This document shows positions 38,274-52,194 of a stretch of 64,000 nucleotides of DNA, piece after piece. Positions within the stretch are counted from its first letter, which is position 1, and each line of letters begins with the position of its first letter. The DNA is from a virus (Duplodnaviria; Heunggongvirae; Uroviricota; Caudoviricetes). The notes under the pieces are model-generated. The model was not told the DNA's origin and ran no database searches. It saw only the letters and a program-made list of their open reading frames with translations. The stretch is from positions 100,285-164,284 of the IMG/VR virus record IMGVR_UViG_3300043399_000371; one strand, given 5' to 3'. Made by a program: the position numbers and the translations under genes.

Positions 38274-39449
38274 TTAGGCGATACGGGCGCGAGGATTGAA
38301 GTAGTTCACCATCTTGCCGACATAGGGCGACTTGGCAAACGATTCAACTTCTTGACCCTTAATCGTCCCGGAGATAGTGATTTGAGATCCGGCGTCGAAC
38401 CCATTATTAGTGGTGAACAGCTTGACGATTTTATTATCCCCGGTCCGAATGGTATAGATCGACTTCATTCCGAAATCATTTTCATAGCGGTGAACATTGA
38501 TAATCGTCCCCGGAACCTTGACCTTAGTTCCCGGCGCAGCAATCGGTTCCTCATTGATCGATTCTGAAGCGGTAGCACGGGCAGCGACTTCATCCCTTTC
38601 ACGCATAAACATCATCATAGCAGCAGCAAGATACCCGAATGCGTTTTCGGTGATGAATTCCGAGCCAGCAAAGGCGGCAGCATTAAGATTGAATTCCGAG
38701 CCAGTACGGGCGGAAATCCAAGCTTGAGCGGCAGCAGCAGCGTCCCGATCCGAATCCTCTACCGTGATTCGATCATCATCCCGCTTGGACCAATAGTGAT
38801 TCCCGATCATCACTTTAGTGGGGAAATCGGCGTCAGCTTTGCGATACCCGTATTGGCGAATCGCGGCGTGAGCGACGGCGAGGAAATTCAGAGTCTCCAC
38901 GCTCCACACAATCCGGCCCCCGCGACCGATATCCTCTTCATCGATATCCGAATAGTCTTTGATGTTGAATCCGGCGAGCAGCGAACAATACTGAGCGATT
39001 GCCTCAGGGTTATGATGACCGAGAAAATCCTTGAGGCAGGACCGACCGACTTGTTTGAACTCCCCGTCTTTGGCGACGATAAACGTGTCTTTGCGGAACC
39101 GATTGATACCACAATGATCGCAATGCTCAGGATTCGCATCACGGTAGTATGCGGGAATCGTGGCACCCGGAACCGACTTCAGAAGAACGGCACCCGTATC
39201 TTCCACTCGGGAGATGGTGCCGACGAATTCCCATCCGGCCAGTTTGGGCGCGGACCCGGAAACCGTCGCTTCGATATGATCGCAGAACATATCCTCACCA
39301 AACCCGTTGCGACCGATCTTGATAACCTTGGACGCGCCGAAAATCAACGTCGGAGCATCACAACCCAGCTTCGCGGCACGGGCGGCAAGCTTGGCGATTT
39401 CAGCCGTGAGTTCGTCTTTGCGGTAGCAGGGGATCAGAGTGGTGATCAT
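38274..39449 (-). CDS. hypothetical protein (first gene of GC-richer island)
   Basis: 391 aa. HCDHCG possible metal site. High-GC codon usage unlike the flanking phage genes. Confidence 0.55.
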   Translation of the reverse strand: MITTLIPCYRKDELTAEIAKLAARAAKLGCDAPTLIFGASKVIKIGRNGFGEDMFCDHIEATVSGSAPKLAGWEFVGTISRVEDTGAVLLKSVPGATIPAYYRDANPEHCDHCGINRFRKDTFIVAKDGEFKQVGRSCLKDFLGHHNPEAIAQYCSLLAGFNIKDYSDIDEEDIGRGGRIVWSVETLNFLAVAHAAIRQYGYRKADADFPTKVMIGNHYWSKRDDDRITVEDSDRDAAAAAQAWISARTGSEFNLNAAAFAGSEFITENAFGYLAAAMMMFMRERDEVAARATASESINEEPIAAPGTKVKVPGTIINVHRYENDFGMKSIYTIRTGDNKIVKLFTTNNGFDAGSQITISGTIKGQEVESFAKSPYVGKMVNYFNPRARIA

Positions 39450-39484
39450 GGTGCCGAGTCCTAGTGCGTTGTGGTGAGCCTAGA

Positions 39485-39751
39485 TTAGAGAAAATCGACT
39501 GCGGCGTCGGCGACTTCCCATCCGTCCCGCGCGTCCCCGGAAACATCCTCCGAATCCGATTCGGGATCGTCTTCAGGGATGACACCGAGAAGGATCGCAA
39601 CCTCATCCACCGAGAAGATCCCAAGATCTTTGAATTCCTTGAACGTCTCCACGGTGAAACCCGCGTCGAAAACGGCCTTGATCGTCGCAACATCCGCGCT
39701 AGGATCAATGAATTGGAAAAGCTTTTGAACTTGCTGAGTCGCGTTGATCAT
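39485..39751 (-). CDS. small acidic hypothetical protein
   Basis: Promoter TTGACA-N17/18-TAGAAT at ~39790..39825. RBS aggaat. Confidence 0.5.
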   Translation of the reverse strand: MINATQQVQKLFQFIDPSADVATIKAVFDAGFTVETFKEFKDLGIFSVDEVAILLGVIPEDDPESDSEDVSGDARDGWEVADAAVDFL

Positions 39752-39817
39752 GATGCTGATTCCTAAGTGAGTTGCGAGGATTAAATTCTAATCCGGATCG
39801 ATCCGGGTTGTCAACTA

Positions 39818-39982
39818 CTAAATTTCCCTGATGCTCACCAACTCCAGTCCCGGAAAAATCATGGCGAACATATCAGAAGCTTCCGATTCCGACTCAGCAA
39901 AAACGTTATAGTCAAAAGTCCACGCCGAGTCTTCGATCATACGGTCAACCAAATCTTTGCCAACCATTGCGAACAGTTTCAT
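39818..39982 (-). CDS. small protein (54 aa), not in ORF track
   Basis: Downstream of the promoter at 40017..40045. Translates to MKLFAMVGKDLVDRMIEDSAW... Confidence 0.35.
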   Translation of the reverse strand: MKLFAMVGKDLVDRMIEDSAWTFDYNVFAESESEASDMFAMIFPGLELVSIREI

Positions 39983-40016
39983 GATCAACCCTATCAAAAG
40001 TAGCAGCGAAGACTAG

Positions 40017-40045
40017 ATTCTAGGGGAATTCGGGAGCCTTGTCAA
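40017..40045 (-). promoter_or_regulatory. sigma70-like early promoter TTGACA-N17-TAGAAT (first of ~19 such units in 39.8-52.2 kb)
   Basis: Minus-sense ggagTTGACAaggctcccgaattccccTAGAATctag. Confidence 0.6.
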
Positions 40046-40059
40046 CTCCCCTTTTCACC

Positions 40060-40386
40060 TTAACCGTAGAGTGCCTGACGCCAGCGACGGGCAGTCTTCA
40101 TGGGGTCCAATCCGAATGCCGCGCAAGCTTGATCCGCATACTGATCCCCGACTGCCTTAAGTGCGCGGAAAGCTTCCCGATCCCCATCCTTGTAAGAGTG
40201 ATCCGCCCAATTTGCGATATCGAACTCGCAAACACAAGGCATGGTAGGATCGATCCCGGAGTGGAACCGAGCCATACGCCAAACATACGCGGCAAACCCG
40301 TCTTTGGGTTTCGCGGTACGAAGACCCTTGCGACCCTTGAGTTGCGCGAGAACCGTGTCGAAGGAAGGCGCGATATAGTTTGCCAT
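40060..40386 (-). CDS. hypothetical protein
   Basis: Promoter at ~40415..40447. Initiation region AAGGATGATGATCATGG. Confidence 0.5.
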   Translation of the reverse strand: MANYIAPSFDTVLAQLKGRKGLRTAKPKDGFAAYVWRMARFHSGIDPTMPCVCEFDIANWADHSYKDGDREAFRALKAVGDQYADQACAAFGLDPMKTARRWRQALYG

Positions 40387-50178: not shown

Positions 50179-50216
50179 TTTGTATATCCTTTATTTCATC
50201 CGCAACACCAAGAAGT

Positions 50217-50426
50217 TTAGATGAAAAAACTAGCCTTGTCAATAGTTTTATGGGCAATCATTGAGTTGTTGTTTTTACGCAACATCCTTGACATAGAGTC
50301 CCGATCTAGTGCAAGGGATAGAGCATCAATCTTGTCCCTGAAGCATCCCACAATTTGCTCTTGAAAGACCACATAGAACTTGGAACCGATCTTGTCAATC
50401 TTTGCACCAGTAATTTGAACCATCAT
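50217..50426 (-). CDS. hypothetical protein
   Basis: 69-aa ORF. Confidence 0.4.
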   Translation of the reverse strand: MMVQITGAKIDKIGSKFYVVFQEQIVGCFRDKIDALSLALDRDSMSRMLRKNNNSMIAHKTIDKASFFI

Positions 50427-50446
50427 GGGGTTTCCTCCTGTAGAAG

Positions 50447-50761
50447 TCAGACAGTATACCGTACTTTTTTGATCCCTGCAAGCTTGATTGCTTTGGCGCA
50501 GATCGGGCAGGGCTTCGCGTTCATGGGTTGACCATCAGCATTATACCTTGAAATGAAAATAGAATATGCCCTACTCAGGTCTTTACACTTTGTAATTGCA
50601 TGAATTTCAGCGTGTAGATATTCCTTTTCGGGCATTCCCACATTATTTGCAAGTTTCTTTTGATATGGGTGAGTCTTAACATAAGAGTTTTGACCCACAC
50701 TAATCGGATGACCGCGCTTATCAAAAATAATTGCAGTCATTCGTTGTTTTTTACTTGCCAT
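50447..50761 (-). CDS. small cytidine/deoxycytidylate-deaminase-fold zinc protein
   Basis: HAEIHAI ... PCPICAKAI matches the CDA zinc-binding signature (H-x-E ... PCxxC). Confidence 0.55.
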   Translation of the reverse strand: MASKKQRMTAIIFDKRGHPISVGQNSYVKTHPYQKKLANNVGMPEKEYLHAEIHAITKCKDLSRAYSIFISRYNADGQPMNAKPCPICAKAIKLAGIKKVRYTV

Positions 50762-51047
50762 GTTTTTCTTTGATCATATACGGTTGTTGAACTGCTTTTT
50801 CCATAGCGAGAAGTTCTTTTTCGTTATAATAATTATAAACACAGGAATAACGATCCGAATTCAGACGCCCCATTGCTTTAATTCGACCAACTTTTTTATT
50901 GAAGTTGTCATTAGGTGAGCACCAAGAATATGCAACCTTAAACTTGCAATCACCAATTTGGGTATATGCCATAGTGACACCACCAAGATTAGAAACAGCA
51001 CCATCAAATTCAAAATTGCGGAAGTGAGCAAATTTAATCTTTTCCAT
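50751..51047 (-). CDS. hypothetical protein
   Basis: 98-aa ORF. Confidence 0.45.
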   Translation of the reverse strand: MEKIKFAHFRNFEFDGAVSNLGGVTMAYTQIGDCKFKVAYSWCSPNDNFNKKVGRIKAMGRLNSDRYSCVYNYYNEKELLAMEKAVQQPYMIKEKHGK

Positions 51048-51175
51048 TATAAAACCCCTTTATTTAAAGAAACACGTTGCAACGACACAAGAAGAGAGAA
51101 AGATGATTTCCTCATAGGATCGAAGGAAATCATTGAACCAACAAACAAACCCAAAAACTTTTTCCATTTTATACC

Positions 51176-52105
51176 TCACTCGCAGATAGAGTATTCTGCC
51201 ATACGTTGCCAGTCATTGTCAACTGTGGCGCGGATCTTGCAGGTAGTGATAAGAGAACGCAGCGAAAGGCCACCTCGCGCTCGATCCTTAACAGTATCTA
51301 GGAATTCTAGTGCATCAGCCTTAACTTCTTTGGAATACTCCGGGAGGAAGTTGGGGTCTTTTGCAATAACACGCATACGATCAATCGTTTCATCAAGAGT
51401 CATGGAAACGTCGATCATAAGCGAACGGGAACGAATAGCCTGATCAATATCCGACTGATTTTGATTGGTGATGAAGATGATTTGACCCGTGAACTCAAAA
51501 GTACGCGGGAGATCATCGTCGCCACGCATCTCAGAGTTCCAAGAGATTACACGCTTATCATAAGAATCGAGTGCAGCCTTTAGAATATTGAGTGCGGTAT
51601 CGTTGTTCAGAACGGAATCACAATCGTCATACACAATGATGCCGTTGTTGTTGGCATACAGAGAACGGTAGAGTGCCTTAGGAGTGCTATAACCCTTGAT
51701 GAACACAAACGAATTGCTACGATCAATACCGAGTGCATCATCAGTATCGATAAGCGAGAAATCATCAAGACCACTAGTCTCCAATGCTTTGCGGACGGTA
51801 TAGGTCTTACCGAGTCCACCCGCGCCGGAGATGACAACAGAAGGCTGAACCTTCTCCGCGACCATCTTGACCGCTTTCTCAAGGAAATCGAATCGTTCAT
51901 TAATGTGAAAGCGACTCTCGGAAAAGTTTACAACATTAGCGGATGTACGCTTCTTAGAACGCCCATCAACGTATGTGCCGAGTTTTTTCTCTACCATAAT
52001 CTCAGCGGCACGATGCGTATAGGCAGCACCAAGAAATTCACCATTGACATAAGCTTCAAAACGCTTGCCGACTTGCGTAACACCAGTAAAGGAATTGTCG
52101 AACAT
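51176..52105 (-). CDS. AAA-family P-loop ATPase
   Basis: Walker A SGAGGLGKTY. Promoter at ~52135..52167. Confidence 0.55.
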   Translation of the reverse strand: MFDNSFTGVTQVGKRFEAYVNGEFLGAAYTHRAAEIMVEKKLGTYVDGRSKKRTSANVVNFSESRFHINERFDFLEKAVKMVAEKVQPSVVISGAGGLGKTYTVRKALETSGLDDFSLIDTDDALGIDRSNSFVFIKGYSTPKALYRSLYANNNGIIVYDDCDSVLNNDTALNILKAALDSYDKRVISWNSEMRGDDDLPRTFEFTGQIIFITNQNQSDIDQAIRSRSLMIDVSMTLDETIDRMRVIAKDPNFLPEYSKEVKADALEFLDTVKDRARGGLSLRSLITTCKIRATVDNDWQRMAEYSICE

Positions 52106-52194
52106 TGTGTGTGTCCTGTTTGAGTTGCGATTCCGAGATTGTGAAGGAATCGGTTATCTGTGTCAAGTCCTATTTTTGTTGTATTTTTACAACA

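What the first reader, a model, noticed from the sequence alone, without database searches (positions are those of the whole stretch)
38274..52180. GC-richer island of ~40 small early genes built from reiterated promoter-leader cassettes
From ~38.3 to ~48.5 kb base composition shifts visibly upward in GC. All genes are minus-strand and mostly 60-160 aa. About every 300-700 nt there is a near-consensus TTGACA-N16-18-TA(G/T)AAT promoter, seen on the plus strand as ...TTGTCAAC... I counted ~19 of them from 39.8 to 52.2 kb. Three consecutive genes (starts 47804, 48150, 48488) share an almost identical promoter-plus-5'UTR cassette (...ATCATCGCAACTTGACTGGAGTACACAAG-ATG). Three others share the initiation region AAGGATGATGATCATGG (40386, 41317, 43102). 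The pattern looks like a hyperplastic early region assembled by promoter-cassette shuffling, or a laterally acquired host-takeover or anti-defence module. It includes a DSP phosphatase, a metallophosphoesterase, an HExxH protein, a P-loop kinase and a very acidic DNA-mimic-like protein.
Basis: seen in the sequence. Interest (0 to 1): 0.65.

Follow-up and report, generated by a model that had tools for sequence, protein, structure and literature searches.

The report
Shuffled early-promoter gene cassettes in phage
A 15-kb stretch of an uncultured T4-like freshwater phage holds about 38 small genes, most preceded by a near-identical host-type promoter-plus-leader cassette, and relatives show genes swapped exactly at those cassettes, a gene-shuffling mechanism already described for T4-like phages.

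Summary
GC is 0.36 in the flanks, 0.51 at 38.1-41.35 kb and 0.43 at 41.35-48.55 kb. The shift sits at third codon positions (GC3 0.52-0.62 against 0.26 in background genes) and is gene-by-gene mosaic. The region has 24 strong minus-strand TTGACA-N16-18-TAnnnT promoters, against 0.4 expected and 1 on the plus strand. Each lies 59-65 nt before an ATG. They form repeat families of 40-94 nt around unrelated genes.

Comparative data support cassette shuffling. A ~92%-identical contig (L067) has one 114-aa gene where the window has two genes, and both breakpoints lie at the AATCTAG motif next to the -10 box. More distant relatives (L038/L039, L071) carry the same genes in other orders, with other neighbours and with different leader types.

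This works like the PeSL cassettes of T4-like hyperplastic regions (Arbiol 2010, Comeau 2014). It is a variant: most cassettes abut the upstream stop codon and lack the terminator stem-loop.

A single imported island is unlikely. Early timing is inferred. The DNA-mimic idea is unsupported. The cause of the GC-rich mosaic is unresolved, and that is the only moderately novel part.

The parts
38101..41350 (-). GC-richest block (GC 0.513, gene GC3 0.52-0.62). It holds the 391-aa gene and seven small genes.
41351..48550 (-). Intermediate, gene-by-gene mosaic block (GC 0.427, GC3 0.31-0.66).
48551..53500 (-). Continuation of the promoter-dense small-gene array at near-background GC (0.395).
39749..39814 (-). 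Cassette, family B. TTGACA-N18-TAGAAT, with the palindrome CCGGATCGATCCGG in the spacer and leader TTAATCCTCGCAACTCACTTAGG. It ends at the ATG of the 88-aa gene.
   Evidence: (D4, D8)
39980..40045 (-). Cassette, family A. The -35 box lies inside the hairpin GGGGAG..CTCCC, and the -10 region reads TAGAATCTAG. It ends at the ATG of the 54-aa gene. The left breakpoint of the L067 replacement is at about 40,012.
39488..40012 (-). Segment (54-aa gene, cassette, 88-aa gene) that is replaced by a single 114-aa gene plus a promoter in the ~92%-identical relative L067.
39450..39487 (-). Half-cassette: a family-A leader remnant (TAATCTAGGCTCACCACAACGCACTAGGACTCGGCACC) before the 391-aa gene, with no -35/-10 boxes. 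It is the right breakpoint of the L067 replacement.
40384..40449 (-). Cassette, family A, ending in AAGGATGATGATCATGG. The upstream gene's stop codon is the TGA inside TTGACA.
40728..40792 (-). Cassette, family B (90% identical over 59 nt to the copy at 39,814).
   Evidence: (D8)
41000..41063 (-). Cassette, family B variant. The upstream stop codon is the TGA of TTGACA.
   Evidence: (D4)
41306..41358 (-). Weak promoter (TTGACT-N18-TATTTT) followed by the AAGGATGATGATCATGG start region of the 82-aa gene.
41650..41746 (-). Cassette, family A, with the upstream stem-loop TGTTGTAAAAATACAACA (41,729-41,746) and an A-tract. This is the most PeSL-like copy.
   Evidence: D1-D3, D9; z = -4.5
42621..42684 (-). 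Cassette, family A (reference copy of D1), before the 92-aa gene.
43091..43154 (-). Cassette with the AAGGATGATGATCATGG start region, before the DSP-phosphatase-like gene. The upstream stop TAG abuts the -35 box.
44641..44706 (-). Cassette, family A (TAGAATCTAGTCTTCAGTCAACGAATCAAGG), before the HExxH gene.
   Evidence: (D2, D3)
45055..45116 (-). Cassette, family A variant. The upstream stop codon is the TGA of TTGACA.
   Evidence: (D2)
46153..46218 (-). Cassette, family A (83% identical over 54 nt to the copy at 44,706).
46364..46419 (-). Cassette whose spacer is 95% identical to that of the 46,218 copy, with a short leader. The upstream stop codon is the TGA of TTGACA.
   Evidence: (D10)
47107..47171 (-). 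Cassette whose -35 box is enclosed in a 13-bp GC-rich hairpin (-23.7 kcal/mol, z = -5).
47802..47864 (-). Cassette, family C (perfect TTGACA-N16-TATAAT, leader ATCATCGCAACTTGACTGGAGTACACAAG).
   Evidence: (D5)
48148..48211 (-). Cassette, family C (95% identical over 40 nt to the copy at 47,802).
   Evidence: (D5)
48486..48550 (-). Cassette, family C with a degraded -35 box (TAGACA). An upstream stem-loop CTATCG..CGATAG is present.
   Evidence: (D5)
49840..49904 (-). Promoter-leader before the 72-aa gene. The upstream stop codon is the TGA of TTGACA.
50176..50242 (-). Cassette, family D. It is similar to the promoter-leader at 34,542, outside the finding.
51165..51222 (-). Promoter-leader before the 35-aa ORF and the following genes.
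52103..52194 (-). Cassette with the upstream stem-loop TGTTGTAAAAATACAACA (52,177-52,194), before the 309-aa AAA ATPase gene.
   Evidence: (D9)
52818..52884 (-). Promoter-leader before the 82-aa gene.
53383..53473 (-). Promoter inside a 17-bp hairpin, with an upstream stem-loop (53,456-53,473) of the D9 family.
   Evidence: (D9)
38274..39449 (-). 391-aa protein of phrog_2319, function unknown. Homologues at 39-45% identity occur in other large T4-like contigs next to PhoH.
40060..40386 (-). 108-aa cargo gene. Homologues at 62-96% identity occur in at least six different genomic contexts, including an otherwise unrelated phage contig (L036).
41320..41652 (-). Acidic 110-aa protein (pI 4.1) of phrog_9974, a widespread family with more than 800 relatives. 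The model has a confident fold with no significant PDB match.
42629..43093 (-). Dual-specificity/Tyr-phosphatase-like protein (weak match).
43155..44006 (-). Calcineurin-like metallophosphoesterase. Its GC3 is 0.31, at background level. It is absent from relative L039.
44149..44643 (-). 164-aa protein with an HExxH motif (H97).
46416..46826 (-). AAA_33 P-loop kinase-like protein.
50447..50761 (-). Cytidine/dCMP deaminase-like protein.
51176..52105 (-). AAA ATPase-like protein (309 aa, weak Pfam match: PF00004 20.7 bits, below the 21.2-bit cut-off).
37776..37803 (-). Canonical intrinsic terminator (AAACCCGG-N9-CCGGGTTTTTT) after the last gene of the array (37,831-38,082). It is the only clear terminator downstream of the cassettes.
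   Evidence: read directly from the sequence

Best explanation
The region is a hyperplastic accessory-gene region of an uncultured T4-like myovirus. About 38 small, mostly function-unknown genes are arranged head to tail on one strand. Most are preceded by a portable expression cassette with these parts in order:

- stop codon(s) for the upstream gene, often the TGA inside TTGACA or a TAG in the AAATAGTAG motif;
- an A-rich tract;
- a near-consensus sigma-70 promoter (TTGACA-N17/18-TAnAAT);
- a conserved leader of about 28 nt that is CA-rich or contains GGAG, with the ribosome-binding site;
- the ATG.

Host RNA polymerase would therefore fire at about 20 sites immediately after infection (inferred). 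Transcription would read through downstream genes to the terminator at about 37.8 kb, because few cassettes carry a terminator (inferred).

The cassettes are 40-94-nt direct repeats flanking unrelated cargo, so they act as portable homology for the phage recombination machinery. Genes are inserted, deleted, replaced and moved between cassettes without loss of expression. The outcome is shown here by comparison with relatives. The molecular pathway is inferred from the PeSL work on RB49/phi1.

The raised GC is a mosaic of cargo genes with GC3 of 0.5-0.66 in a genome with GC3 of about 0.26. It most likely reflects cargo drawn from GC-richer phages of the same host. That part is inference, with confidence of about 0.45.
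For: - Phage identity: gp32-family protein 55% identical to cyanomyovirus gp32, plus DNA and RNA ligases, 24 tRNAs and a 168-kb source contig.
- Promoters: 24 on the minus strand against 0.4 expected and 1 on the plus strand, at a fixed 59-65 nt from start codons.
- Conservation extends beyond the hexamers into the upstream A-tract and AGTAG motif, the spacer and the transcribed leader, and defines repeat families.
- The cargo proteins are not paralogues.
- In 13 of 23 cassettes the upstream stop codon lies within -4 to +14 nt of the -35 box, and in 5 it is the TGA of TTGACA.
- L067 is 92-93% identical in both flanks. It has one 114-aa gene where the window has a 54-aa and an 88-aa gene. Both junctions fall at (T)AATCTAG, between the -10 box and the ribosome-binding site. 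Arbiol et al. mapped PeSL mini-circle crossovers to the same zone.
- L039/L038 share 10 genes at 40-79% amino-acid identity. Three single genes are transposed, about 12 ORFs are unshared, and the same kind of cassettes is present.
- Orthologues carry different leader families, for example family B in the window and family A in L039 for gene 40,802-41,002.
- L071 places homologues of genes that lie 4-5 kb apart in the window within 2 kb of each other.
- The T4 late-promoter motif TATAAATA is absent from 38.3-53.5 kb but occurs 12 times elsewhere in the window.
- Independent assemblies agree. L003 is 100% identical to the window over 7.8 kb, and L038 and L039 match each other.
Against: - No expression data exist, so early timing and read-through are inferred.
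- Only about 5 of 23 cassettes have the upstream stem-loop that defines PeSLs, and those stems are AT-rich and not followed by a T-run. Overall, promoter-overlapping hairpins are no stronger than in shuffled sequence (mean z = 0.14).
- The 108-aa gene also sits between cassettes of an unrelated sequence family in an otherwise unrelated phage contig (L036). Homologous recombination between shared cassettes cannot explain that transfer.
- All comparators are metagenomic contigs, and several are short.
- Similarity among cassettes could partly reflect selection for promoter and leader function rather than common descent.
- No mini-circles or recombination intermediates can be observed here.
Confidence: 0.8

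Rival explanations
1. The region is one laterally acquired island: a single block imported from a GC-rich host or foreign element and carrying its own promoters.
For: There is a sharp GC step at about 38.1-38.2 kb. GC3 is double the background. The block borders an odd repeat-rich non-coding kilobase.
Against: - GC3 alternates gene by gene. For example it is 0.56 at 42,345-42,623, 0.31 at 43,155-44,006 and 0.66 at 46,226-46,366.
- The same cassette families occur in GC-rich and GC-poor parts and outside the region, at 34,542.
- GGCC is as strongly avoided here as in the rest of the genome: 5 observed against 28.5 expected.
- Relative L038 has the same step although its flanking gene is only about 53% identical at the amino-acid level.
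- No integrase or homing-endonuclease domain matched among the 30 region ORFs scanned against Pfam.
- The nearest bacterial homologues of the 391-aa protein are only 23-39% identical and are scattered across phyla.
Confidence: 0.05
2. The GC enrichment is adaptive or mutational rather than historical. One version is selection for host-like, GC-rich codons in immediate-early genes that must be translated before the phage's 24 tRNAs are made. The other is GC-biased gene conversion in a recombination hot region. In either case cassette similarity would reflect functional convergence on strong promoters.
For: - The phage is AT-rich and carries many tRNAs that read A-ending codons. It also has a betaproteobacterial-type tmRNA, which suggests a betaproteobacterial host.
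- The GC3 step persists in two lineages whose orthologues are 40-79% identical. At that divergence synonymous sites should be at equilibrium.
- The GC-rich part shares the lineage's GGCC avoidance and GATC excess.
- An unrelated AT-rich phage contig (L036) also has GC3 0.56-0.70 genes in its promoter-cassette array.
Against: - Other sigma-70-driven genes in the same window are AT-rich: the genes at 30-36 kb have GC3 no higher than 0.34, and those at 49-53 kb have 0.25-0.49.
- Adjacent genes in one transcription array differ by up to 0.3 in GC3.
- Non-coding promoter spacers in the GC-rich block are also GC-rich, which codon selection does not explain.
- A homologue of the 108-aa gene exists with GC3 0.25 (L040), so the protein does not require GC-rich codons.
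- Convergence does not explain the breakpoints inside cassettes.
Confidence: 0.2
3. The functional reading: the block is a coherent host-takeover or anti-defence module, with phosphatases, a kinase, a protease-like HExxH protein and an acidic DNA mimic acting together.
For: - Phosphatase, phosphoesterase, kinase and deaminase domains are present.
- An ADP-ribosyltransferase-like gene lies just downstream at 35,278-36,324.
- The genes are probably early.
- Small acidic proteins are common among anti-restriction factors (general knowledge).
Against: - Gene content and order are not conserved even among close relatives. The metallophosphoesterase is absent from L039, and neighbours differ in L067 and L071. 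This argues against a co-adapted module.
- Most proteins are ORFans or PHROGs of unknown function.
- The acidic 110-aa protein has no Pfam, NCBIfam or PDB match to known DNA mimics.
- Individual anti-defence genes are still plausible and are compatible with the best explanation.
Confidence: 0.25

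Closest known systems
PeSL (promoter-early stem-loop) cassettes of T4-like phages RB49/phi1, PST/T4 and nt-1/KVP40 (Arbiol et al. 2010, PMC2839356; Comeau et al. 2014, PMC4122927)
   Same: - Composite repeated elements with an A/T-rich tract, a sigma-70-like promoter, a Shine-Dalgarno sequence and an ATG. 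The promoter is near-perfect TTGACA-N17-TATAAT, as in RB49/phi1.
- The elements are concentrated in a hyperplastic region of small ORFans.
- Indels, replacements and displacements between relatives have breakpoints in the cassettes, here between the -10 box and the ribosome-binding site. Mini-circle crossovers were mapped to the same zone.
- 'Half' cassettes are present.
   Different: - Most cassettes here have no upstream stem-loop or terminator and abut or overlap the upstream stop codon.
- Where hairpins exist they often lie inside the promoter: in the spacer, or enclosing the -35 box. This holds for 5 of 5 cassettes in relative L071.
- The leaders form distinct conserved families (A, B/C, D).
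- The cargo is compositionally foreign, with GC3 double the background.
- The phage lineage is uncultured, from a freshwater-type metagenome, and probably infects a betaproteobacterium.
- Mini-circles were not tested.
T4 early promoters and the early regions of small non-essential genes in T4-type genomes
   Same: Many closely spaced strong early promoters have conservation extending beyond the two hexamers, into an upstream A-rich element and the spacer. They drive small non-essential genes on one strand, next to an ADP-ribosyltransferase-like gene.
   Different: The T4/PST consensus is TTTACW-N17-TAYWAT, not TTGACA (Comeau 2014). No MotA-type middle promoters were looked for here. T4 has no comparable GC mosaic (own knowledge).
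Hyperplastic / 'ORFanage' regions of cyanomyoviruses (Millard et al. 2009; Puxty et al. 2015, PMC4503421)
   Same: The core genes (gp32) are closest to this group. Both have a large block of small ORFs of unknown function whose content varies between relatives.
   Different: Puxty et al. found only a single host-like early promoter and few stem-loops in the S-PM2 ORFanage, and they considered PeSL-type shuffling unlikely there. Here promoter cassettes occur about every 300-700 nt.

Membership tests
PeSL cassette system (Arbiol 2010; Comeau 2014) | Strong sigma-70-like (early) promoter with -35 and -10 boxes about 17 nt apart | tested here: met
   There are 24 minus-strand sites with exact TTGACA, N16-18 and at least 4 of 6 matches in the -10 box, against 0.4 expected.
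PeSL cassette system (Arbiol 2010; Comeau 2014) | Stem-loop just upstream of the promoter that acts as a transcription terminator | tested here: not met
   Only about 5 of 23 cassettes (41,717, 52,166, 53,445, 48,550, 47,171) have an upstream stem-loop. The stems are AT-rich and not followed by a T-run. In 13 of 23 the upstream stop codon lies within -4 to +14 nt of the -35 box, which leaves no room for a stem-loop. Relatives L071 and L067 do have hairpins, but mostly inside the promoter. Terminator activity cannot be tested with these tools.
PeSL cassette system (Arbiol 2010; Comeau 2014) | A/T-rich tract upstream of the -35 box | tested here: inconclusive
   The consensus aAaa.agt.g lies before TTGACA, and about 15 of 23 cassettes have AAA(A/T)A there. 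Information content is low and is confounded with TAA/TAG stop codons.
PeSL cassette system (Arbiol 2010; Comeau 2014) | Shine-Dalgarno sequence and start codon of the downstream ORF are part of the element, at a fixed distance | tested here: met
   The distance from the -35 box to the ATG is 59-65 nt in 21 of 24 cassettes. AAGG or GGAG lies 6-10 nt before the ATG.
PeSL cassette system (Arbiol 2010; Comeau 2014) | Elements are concentrated in hyperplastic regions among small variable ORF(an)s | tested here: met
   Density is 1.58/kb here against 0.35/kb elsewhere in the window. Most of the 30 cargo proteins scanned have no Pfam family, and of the 20 of those also scanned against PHROGs, matches were only to unknown-function families or none.
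PeSL cassette system (Arbiol 2010; Comeau 2014) | Insertions, deletions and replacements between close relatives have breakpoints within the elements | tested here: met
   Between L067 and the window (about 92% nt identity), both breakpoints of a replacement lie at the (T)AATCTAG motif of family-A cassettes. This is one event only. More distant relatives show shuffled order, but their junctions are less precisely mapped.
PeSL cassette system (Arbiol 2010; Comeau 2014) | Recombination between neighbouring elements yields excised mini-circles | not testable with these tools
   This needs inverse PCR or junction-spanning reads from infected cells or virions.
T4-like myovirus (phage with a T4-type core genome) | T4-type replication and recombination core genes and the late-promoter motif | tested here: met
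   - gp32 (PF08804, E = 5e-45) has best tblastn matches of 54-55% identity to Synechococcus and Prochlorococcus myoviruses.
- An ATP-dependent DNA ligase and RNA ligases are present.
- TATAAATA is enriched: 12 observed against 5.1 expected.
- The source contig is 168 kb.
- Structural core genes lie outside the window and were not examined.

The most novel reading that the evidence does not exclude
Promoter-cassette arrays may act as capture sites for a common pool of small GC-rich early genes that circulates among unrelated AT-rich phages of the same, probably betaproteobacterial, host. Two observations point this way. The same 108-aa gene (GC3 0.55-0.63) sits exactly between cassettes of two unrelated sequence families in two otherwise unrelated phage contigs from the same sample. 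GC3 of 0.5-0.7 persists in these arrays even between orthologues that are 40-79% identical. That would require either continuous influx from GC-rich donors by a route other than cassette homology, or a region-specific force such as GC-biased gene conversion at a recombination hot spot.
Probability: 0.25. Interest if true: 0.6.

Novelty: new variant of a known kind. Interest (0 to 1): 0.4.

Why it matters
This extends the PeSL-type mechanism of modular gene shuffling beyond the cultured Escherichia, Yersinia and Vibrio phages in which it was defined. The new case is an uncultured environmental T4-like lineage, with a breakpoint mapped to the nucleotide.

It also suggests that the terminator stem-loop is dispensable. 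A stop-promoter-leader-ATG unit appears to be enough.

The compositional mosaic is a readable record of gene flow into an AT-rich phage. If followed up, it could show where phage accessory 'dark matter' genes come from, and whether cassette arrays in unrelated phages tap the same gene pool.

In practical terms, the cassettes are compact, strong, portable expression units, and the roughly 38 cargo genes are candidates for host-takeover or anti-defence screens.

Tried and rejected
- No similar cultured phage: a megablast of 38.0-52.5 kb against 50,697 phage records found nothing.
- Exact-pattern scans of IMG/VR found nothing for the family-A leader or the family-B/C leader.
- A looser promoter pattern gave 27 IMG/VR loci. 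These were ordinary sigma-70 promoters with unrelated leaders, so I discarded them as chance or generic matches.
- A scan of IMG/VR with the 391-aa protein found nothing.
That contig (L035, the same as L039) turned out to be the key relative.
- Tandem duplication as the origin of the three family-C genes is rejected, because an all-against-all BLASTP found no paralogy.
- Promoter-overlapping hairpins are not a general feature of the window's cassettes (mean z = 0.14). They are real only in a subset and in L067 and L071.
- A host origin for the GC-rich genes is rejected. The 391-aa family occurs in scattered bacteria at only 23-39% identity, probably in prophages (not checked).
- The 391-aa family has no sequence match among solved structures.
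- NCBIfam gave nothing useful for 8 of 10 proteins.
- The DNA-mimic idea for the acidic 110-aa protein is unsupported. An AlphaFold model with pLDDT 87 has a best Foldseek PDB hit of E = 0.65 and TM about 0.3.
- Rfam found no known RNA in the region or in the adjacent non-coding kilobase.

Full report
**What the window is.** The window is identical to part of a 168,163-bp JGI metagenome contig, 3300047548|Ga0485233_000013. It encodes:
- a gp32-family single-strand-binding protein (PF08804) whose best matches are Synechococcus and Prochlorococcus myoviruses at 54-55% identity;
- an ATP-dependent DNA ligase and two RNA ligases;
- 24 tRNAs, all on the minus strand.

The T4 late-promoter motif TATAAATA is enriched in the window, with 12 observed against 5.1 expected. 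No cultured phage is similar at the DNA level. This is an uncultured T4-like myovirus. A two-piece tmRNA of the betaproteobacterial type at 9,867-10,237 scores 138 bits. The best cultured-phage hit of one island protein is Limnohabitans phage DC31. Both point to a betaproteobacterial host.

Mean GC is 0.359 up to 38.1 kb, 0.513 at 38.1-41.35 kb, 0.427 at 41.35-48.55 kb, 0.395 at 48.55-53.5 kb and 0.359 beyond. The shift is in synonymous positions. Background genes have GC3 of 0.26 (range 0.13-0.34). The eight genes at 38,274-41,308 have 0.52-0.62. Genes up to 48.5 kb alternate between 0.31 and 0.66.

All 38 plausible genes between 38,274 and 52,105 are on the minus strand, with a median of about 90 aa. 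I found 24 strong minus-strand promoters (exact TTGACA, N16-18, at least 4 of 6 matches in the -10 box) in 38,274-53,500. Randomised sequence gave 0.40 +/- 0.61, and the plus strand has 1. The density is 4.5 times that of the rest of the window. The -35 box lies 59-65 nt from the ATG in 21 of 24.

**Anatomy of the cassettes.** The promoters are repeat families of 40-94 nt with 63-95% identity.
- Family A reads AAATAGTAG-TTGACA-N17-TAGAAT-CTAGTCTTCAGTCAAACAAACAAGG-N8-ATG. Its -35 boxes are at 40,045, 40,449, 41,717, 42,684, 44,706, 45,116 and 46,218, and partly 46,419.
- Family B/C reads ...TAGAATTyAATCmTCGCAACTyrACTgGAG.... Its -35 boxes are at 39,814, 40,792, 41,063, 47,864, 48,211 and 48,550.
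- Family D has one copy at 50,242 and one outside the region at 34,542.

Conservation extends to the A-tract and AGTAG before the -35 box, to spacer positions, and to the first 10 or so transcribed bases. The proteins behind similar cassettes are unrelated to each other.

The 5' edge of a cassette is usually the stop codon of the preceding gene. In 13 of 23 cassettes the stop lies within -4 to +14 nt of the -35 box. In five it is the TGA inside TTGACA. Each unit therefore reads stop, promoter, leader, ribosome-binding site, ATG.

Terminators are rare. Only about five cassettes have an upstream stem-loop. A canonical intrinsic terminator appears only after the last gene, at 37,776-37,803. I infer nested read-through transcripts from about 20 promoters. 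TATAAATA is absent from 38.3-53.5 kb, which fits early-only expression. That is inference, not measurement.

**Comparative evidence for shuffling.**
1. L067 (Logan SRR29492082, 2.1 kb) is 92.9% and 91.8% identical to the window on the two sides of a replacement. Where the window has a 54-aa gene, a cassette and an 88-aa gene (39,488-40,012), L067 has one unrelated 114-aa gene followed by a family-A promoter. The left junction comes directly after TAGAATCTAG of the 40,045 cassette. The right junction is at TAATCTAG, leaving the window's 391-aa gene with a leader-only half-cassette. Arbiol et al. mapped PeSL mini-circle crossovers between the -10 box and the Shine-Dalgarno sequence or ATG.
2. 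L039 (the same contig as L035) and the overlapping L038 come from two independent assemblies. They carry homologues of 10 island genes at 40-79% amino-acid identity. Three single genes are transposed (46,226-46,366; 47,875-48,150; 40,060-40,386). The metallophosphoesterase is missing and about 12 ORFs are unshared. They have 9-10 promoter-leader cassettes of the same kind.
3. Nucleotide homology between orthologues starts at or near the ATG and ends near the stop codon. Orthologues can carry different leader families.
4. L071 (2 kb, five cassettes) places homologues of 49,624-49,842, 45,707-45,931 and 40,060-40,386 almost next to each other.
5. The window's own arrangement is confirmed by an independent, 100%-identical 7.8-kb assembly, L003.

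**Relation to known systems.** This matches the PeSL concept for T4-like phages: composite elements with an A/T-rich tract, a stem-loop terminator, a sigma-70 promoter, a Shine-Dalgarno sequence and an ATG. PeSLs cluster in hyperplastic regions and mediate insertion, deletion and replacement of ORFans.

The promoter, the fixed link to the ribosome-binding site and ATG, the location among ORFans, and breakpoints in the elements are all met. The defining upstream terminator stem-loop is not met for most copies. Hairpins that overlap the promoter itself occur in a subset of the window's cassettes: 39,814, 40,045, 47,171 and 53,445 (a weaker one at 40,792, z about -1). They occur in all cassettes of L067 and L071 but are not general in the window. 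I therefore describe this as working like PeSLs and file it as a variant poor in stem-loops. Mini-circle formation cannot be tested here.

**The GC mosaic.** A single imported island is unlikely, for four reasons.
- GC3 changes gene by gene.
- Cassette families span the compositional boundaries.
- GGCC is as strongly avoided in the GC-rich part (5 observed, 28.5 expected) as elsewhere. It is nearly absent from the relatives' island, with 0-1 observed against 15-20 expected.
- L038 shows the same step, with island GC3 of 0.47-0.61 against flank GC3 of 0.11-0.24. Its flanking ADP-ribosyltransferase-like gene is only about 53% identical and is inverted.

Codon selection on early genes is also unlikely as the sole cause. 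Other sigma-70-driven genes in the window are AT-rich, promoter spacers in the block are GC-rich too, and a homologue of the 108-aa gene exists with GC3 of 0.25.

The 108-aa gene (GC3 0.58 here, 0.63 in L036) also sits between cassettes of an unrelated sequence family (TTGACAATAAATCGGnTTGG..TATAAT) in L036. L036 is a contig from the same sample that shares nothing else with the window, and its cassette array also contains genes with GC3 of 0.56-0.70.

My preferred reading is repeated capture of cargo from GC-richer phages of the same host. Selection and GC-biased gene conversion remain open.

**Functions.** Pfam supports a weak DSP/PTP phosphatase, a metallophosphoesterase, an AAA_33 kinase, a deaminase and an AAA ATPase (weak). 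HExxH is present in 44,149-44,643. Most of the other proteins scanned are PHROGs of unknown function or ORFans.

The acidic 110-aa protein belongs to a very widespread family with more than 800 relatives. It gives a confident model (pLDDT 87) with no significant structural match, so 'DNA mimic' is unsupported. Gene content is not conserved among relatives, which argues against a co-adapted module. Individual takeover or anti-defence genes remain plausible.

**Verdict.** The mechanism is already known, and this is a new environmental lineage with variant architecture. The unexplained GC-rich cargo mosaic, which recurs in an unrelated phage contig of the same sample, is the part worth following up.

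Noticed in passing
window 9867-10237 (-): The phage carries a two-piece (permuted) tmRNA of the betaproteobacterial type: Rfam RF01850 at 138 bits (E = 5e-42) and RF04321 at 128 bits. ARAGORN gives the tag peptide ANDERFALAA. It suggests a betaproteobacterial host.
   Followed up: partly
window 36,700-37,775 and 38,100-38,273: About 1.1 kb has no convincing ORF and lies just past the array's terminator. It is full of short reiterated motifs. CTAGAAC(C)GCATCAGGA occurs three times and CAGAACCAGAAGCGAGAAT twice. CTATTGACAATCCTCTGAGA occurs two to three times on the plus strand. There is an inverted pair of CCCCTAGAATCGATC, which is the family-A -10 region, at 38,222-38,262. Rfam finds nothing here. 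It could be an origin of replication, a cassette graveyard or an sRNA locus.
   Followed up: partly
window 36,866-36,962 (-); L038 5510-5606: A perfect promoter at 36,929 (TTGACA-N17-TATAAT) is followed by the leader GGGACTCCGGAAAGAAGACTGGG. This is 77% conserved in relative L038 although the surrounding non-coding DNA has diverged. A roughly 200-nt untranslated leader precedes the next gene. It may be a regulatory RNA.
   Followed up: no
whole window; relatives L038/L039: GGCC is strongly avoided everywhere (observed/expected 0.07-0.33; 0-0.16 in L038/L039) but less so or not at all in L036 (0.57-0.87) and L040 (1.62). This suggests a HaeIII-type restriction system in the host.
   Followed up: partly
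window 38,100-41,400: GATC is 3.3-fold over-represented (42 observed, 12.8 expected) and ATCGAT 10-fold (8 observed, 0.8 expected) in the GC-richest block. GATC is also 2.5-fold enriched in the homologous block of L038. The meaning is unknown; Dam-type methylation or a regulatory palindrome are possibilities.
   Followed up: partly
window 28,137-29,903 (-): A 588-aa protein (weak PF17338 GP88 match) is 65% identical to part of a larger annotated hypothetical protein (CDS about 890 aa) in a 57-kb, high-GC siphovirus from Manatee Spring (MW202545; the 31-kb stretch fetched is 55% GC). This is another sign of gene flow between AT-rich and GC-rich phages.
   Followed up: no
window 34,478-34,542 (-) and 34,629-35,141 (+): A family-D cassette copy lies outside the finding, before a Pyr_excise (endonuclease V-like) gene. 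Next to it is the only plus-strand gene in this part of the window, an HNH_3 homing-endonuclease-like ORF.
   Followed up: no
L036 9,400-15,000 (JGI 3300047548, contig Ga0485233_000157): An otherwise unrelated phage contig from the same sample has its own reiterated promoter cassette (TTGACAATAAATCGGnTTGGnnCTATAAT...TATACGCTGAA...). These precede small genes with mosaic GC3 of 0.56-0.70 in a background of about 0.3. One of the genes is a 66%-identical homologue of the window's 108-aa gene.
   Followed up: partly
L071 1-1970 (ENA ERZ27275305): Five cassettes lie within 2 kb. Each has a GC-rich hairpin inside the spacer between the -35 and -10 boxes (GGGGAC-GAAA-GTCCCC, GGGGG-ATCAAAA-CCCCC, GGGG-GCAGAAA-CCCC). 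The stems differ in sequence but pairing is kept. Most also have a second hairpin just upstream of the -35 box. This may be a terminator or attenuator embedded in the promoter.
   Followed up: partly
window 35,278-36,324 (-); L038 10,024-11,058: The ADP-ribosyltransferase-like gene flanking the array is inverted relative to the array in relative L038.
   Followed up: no
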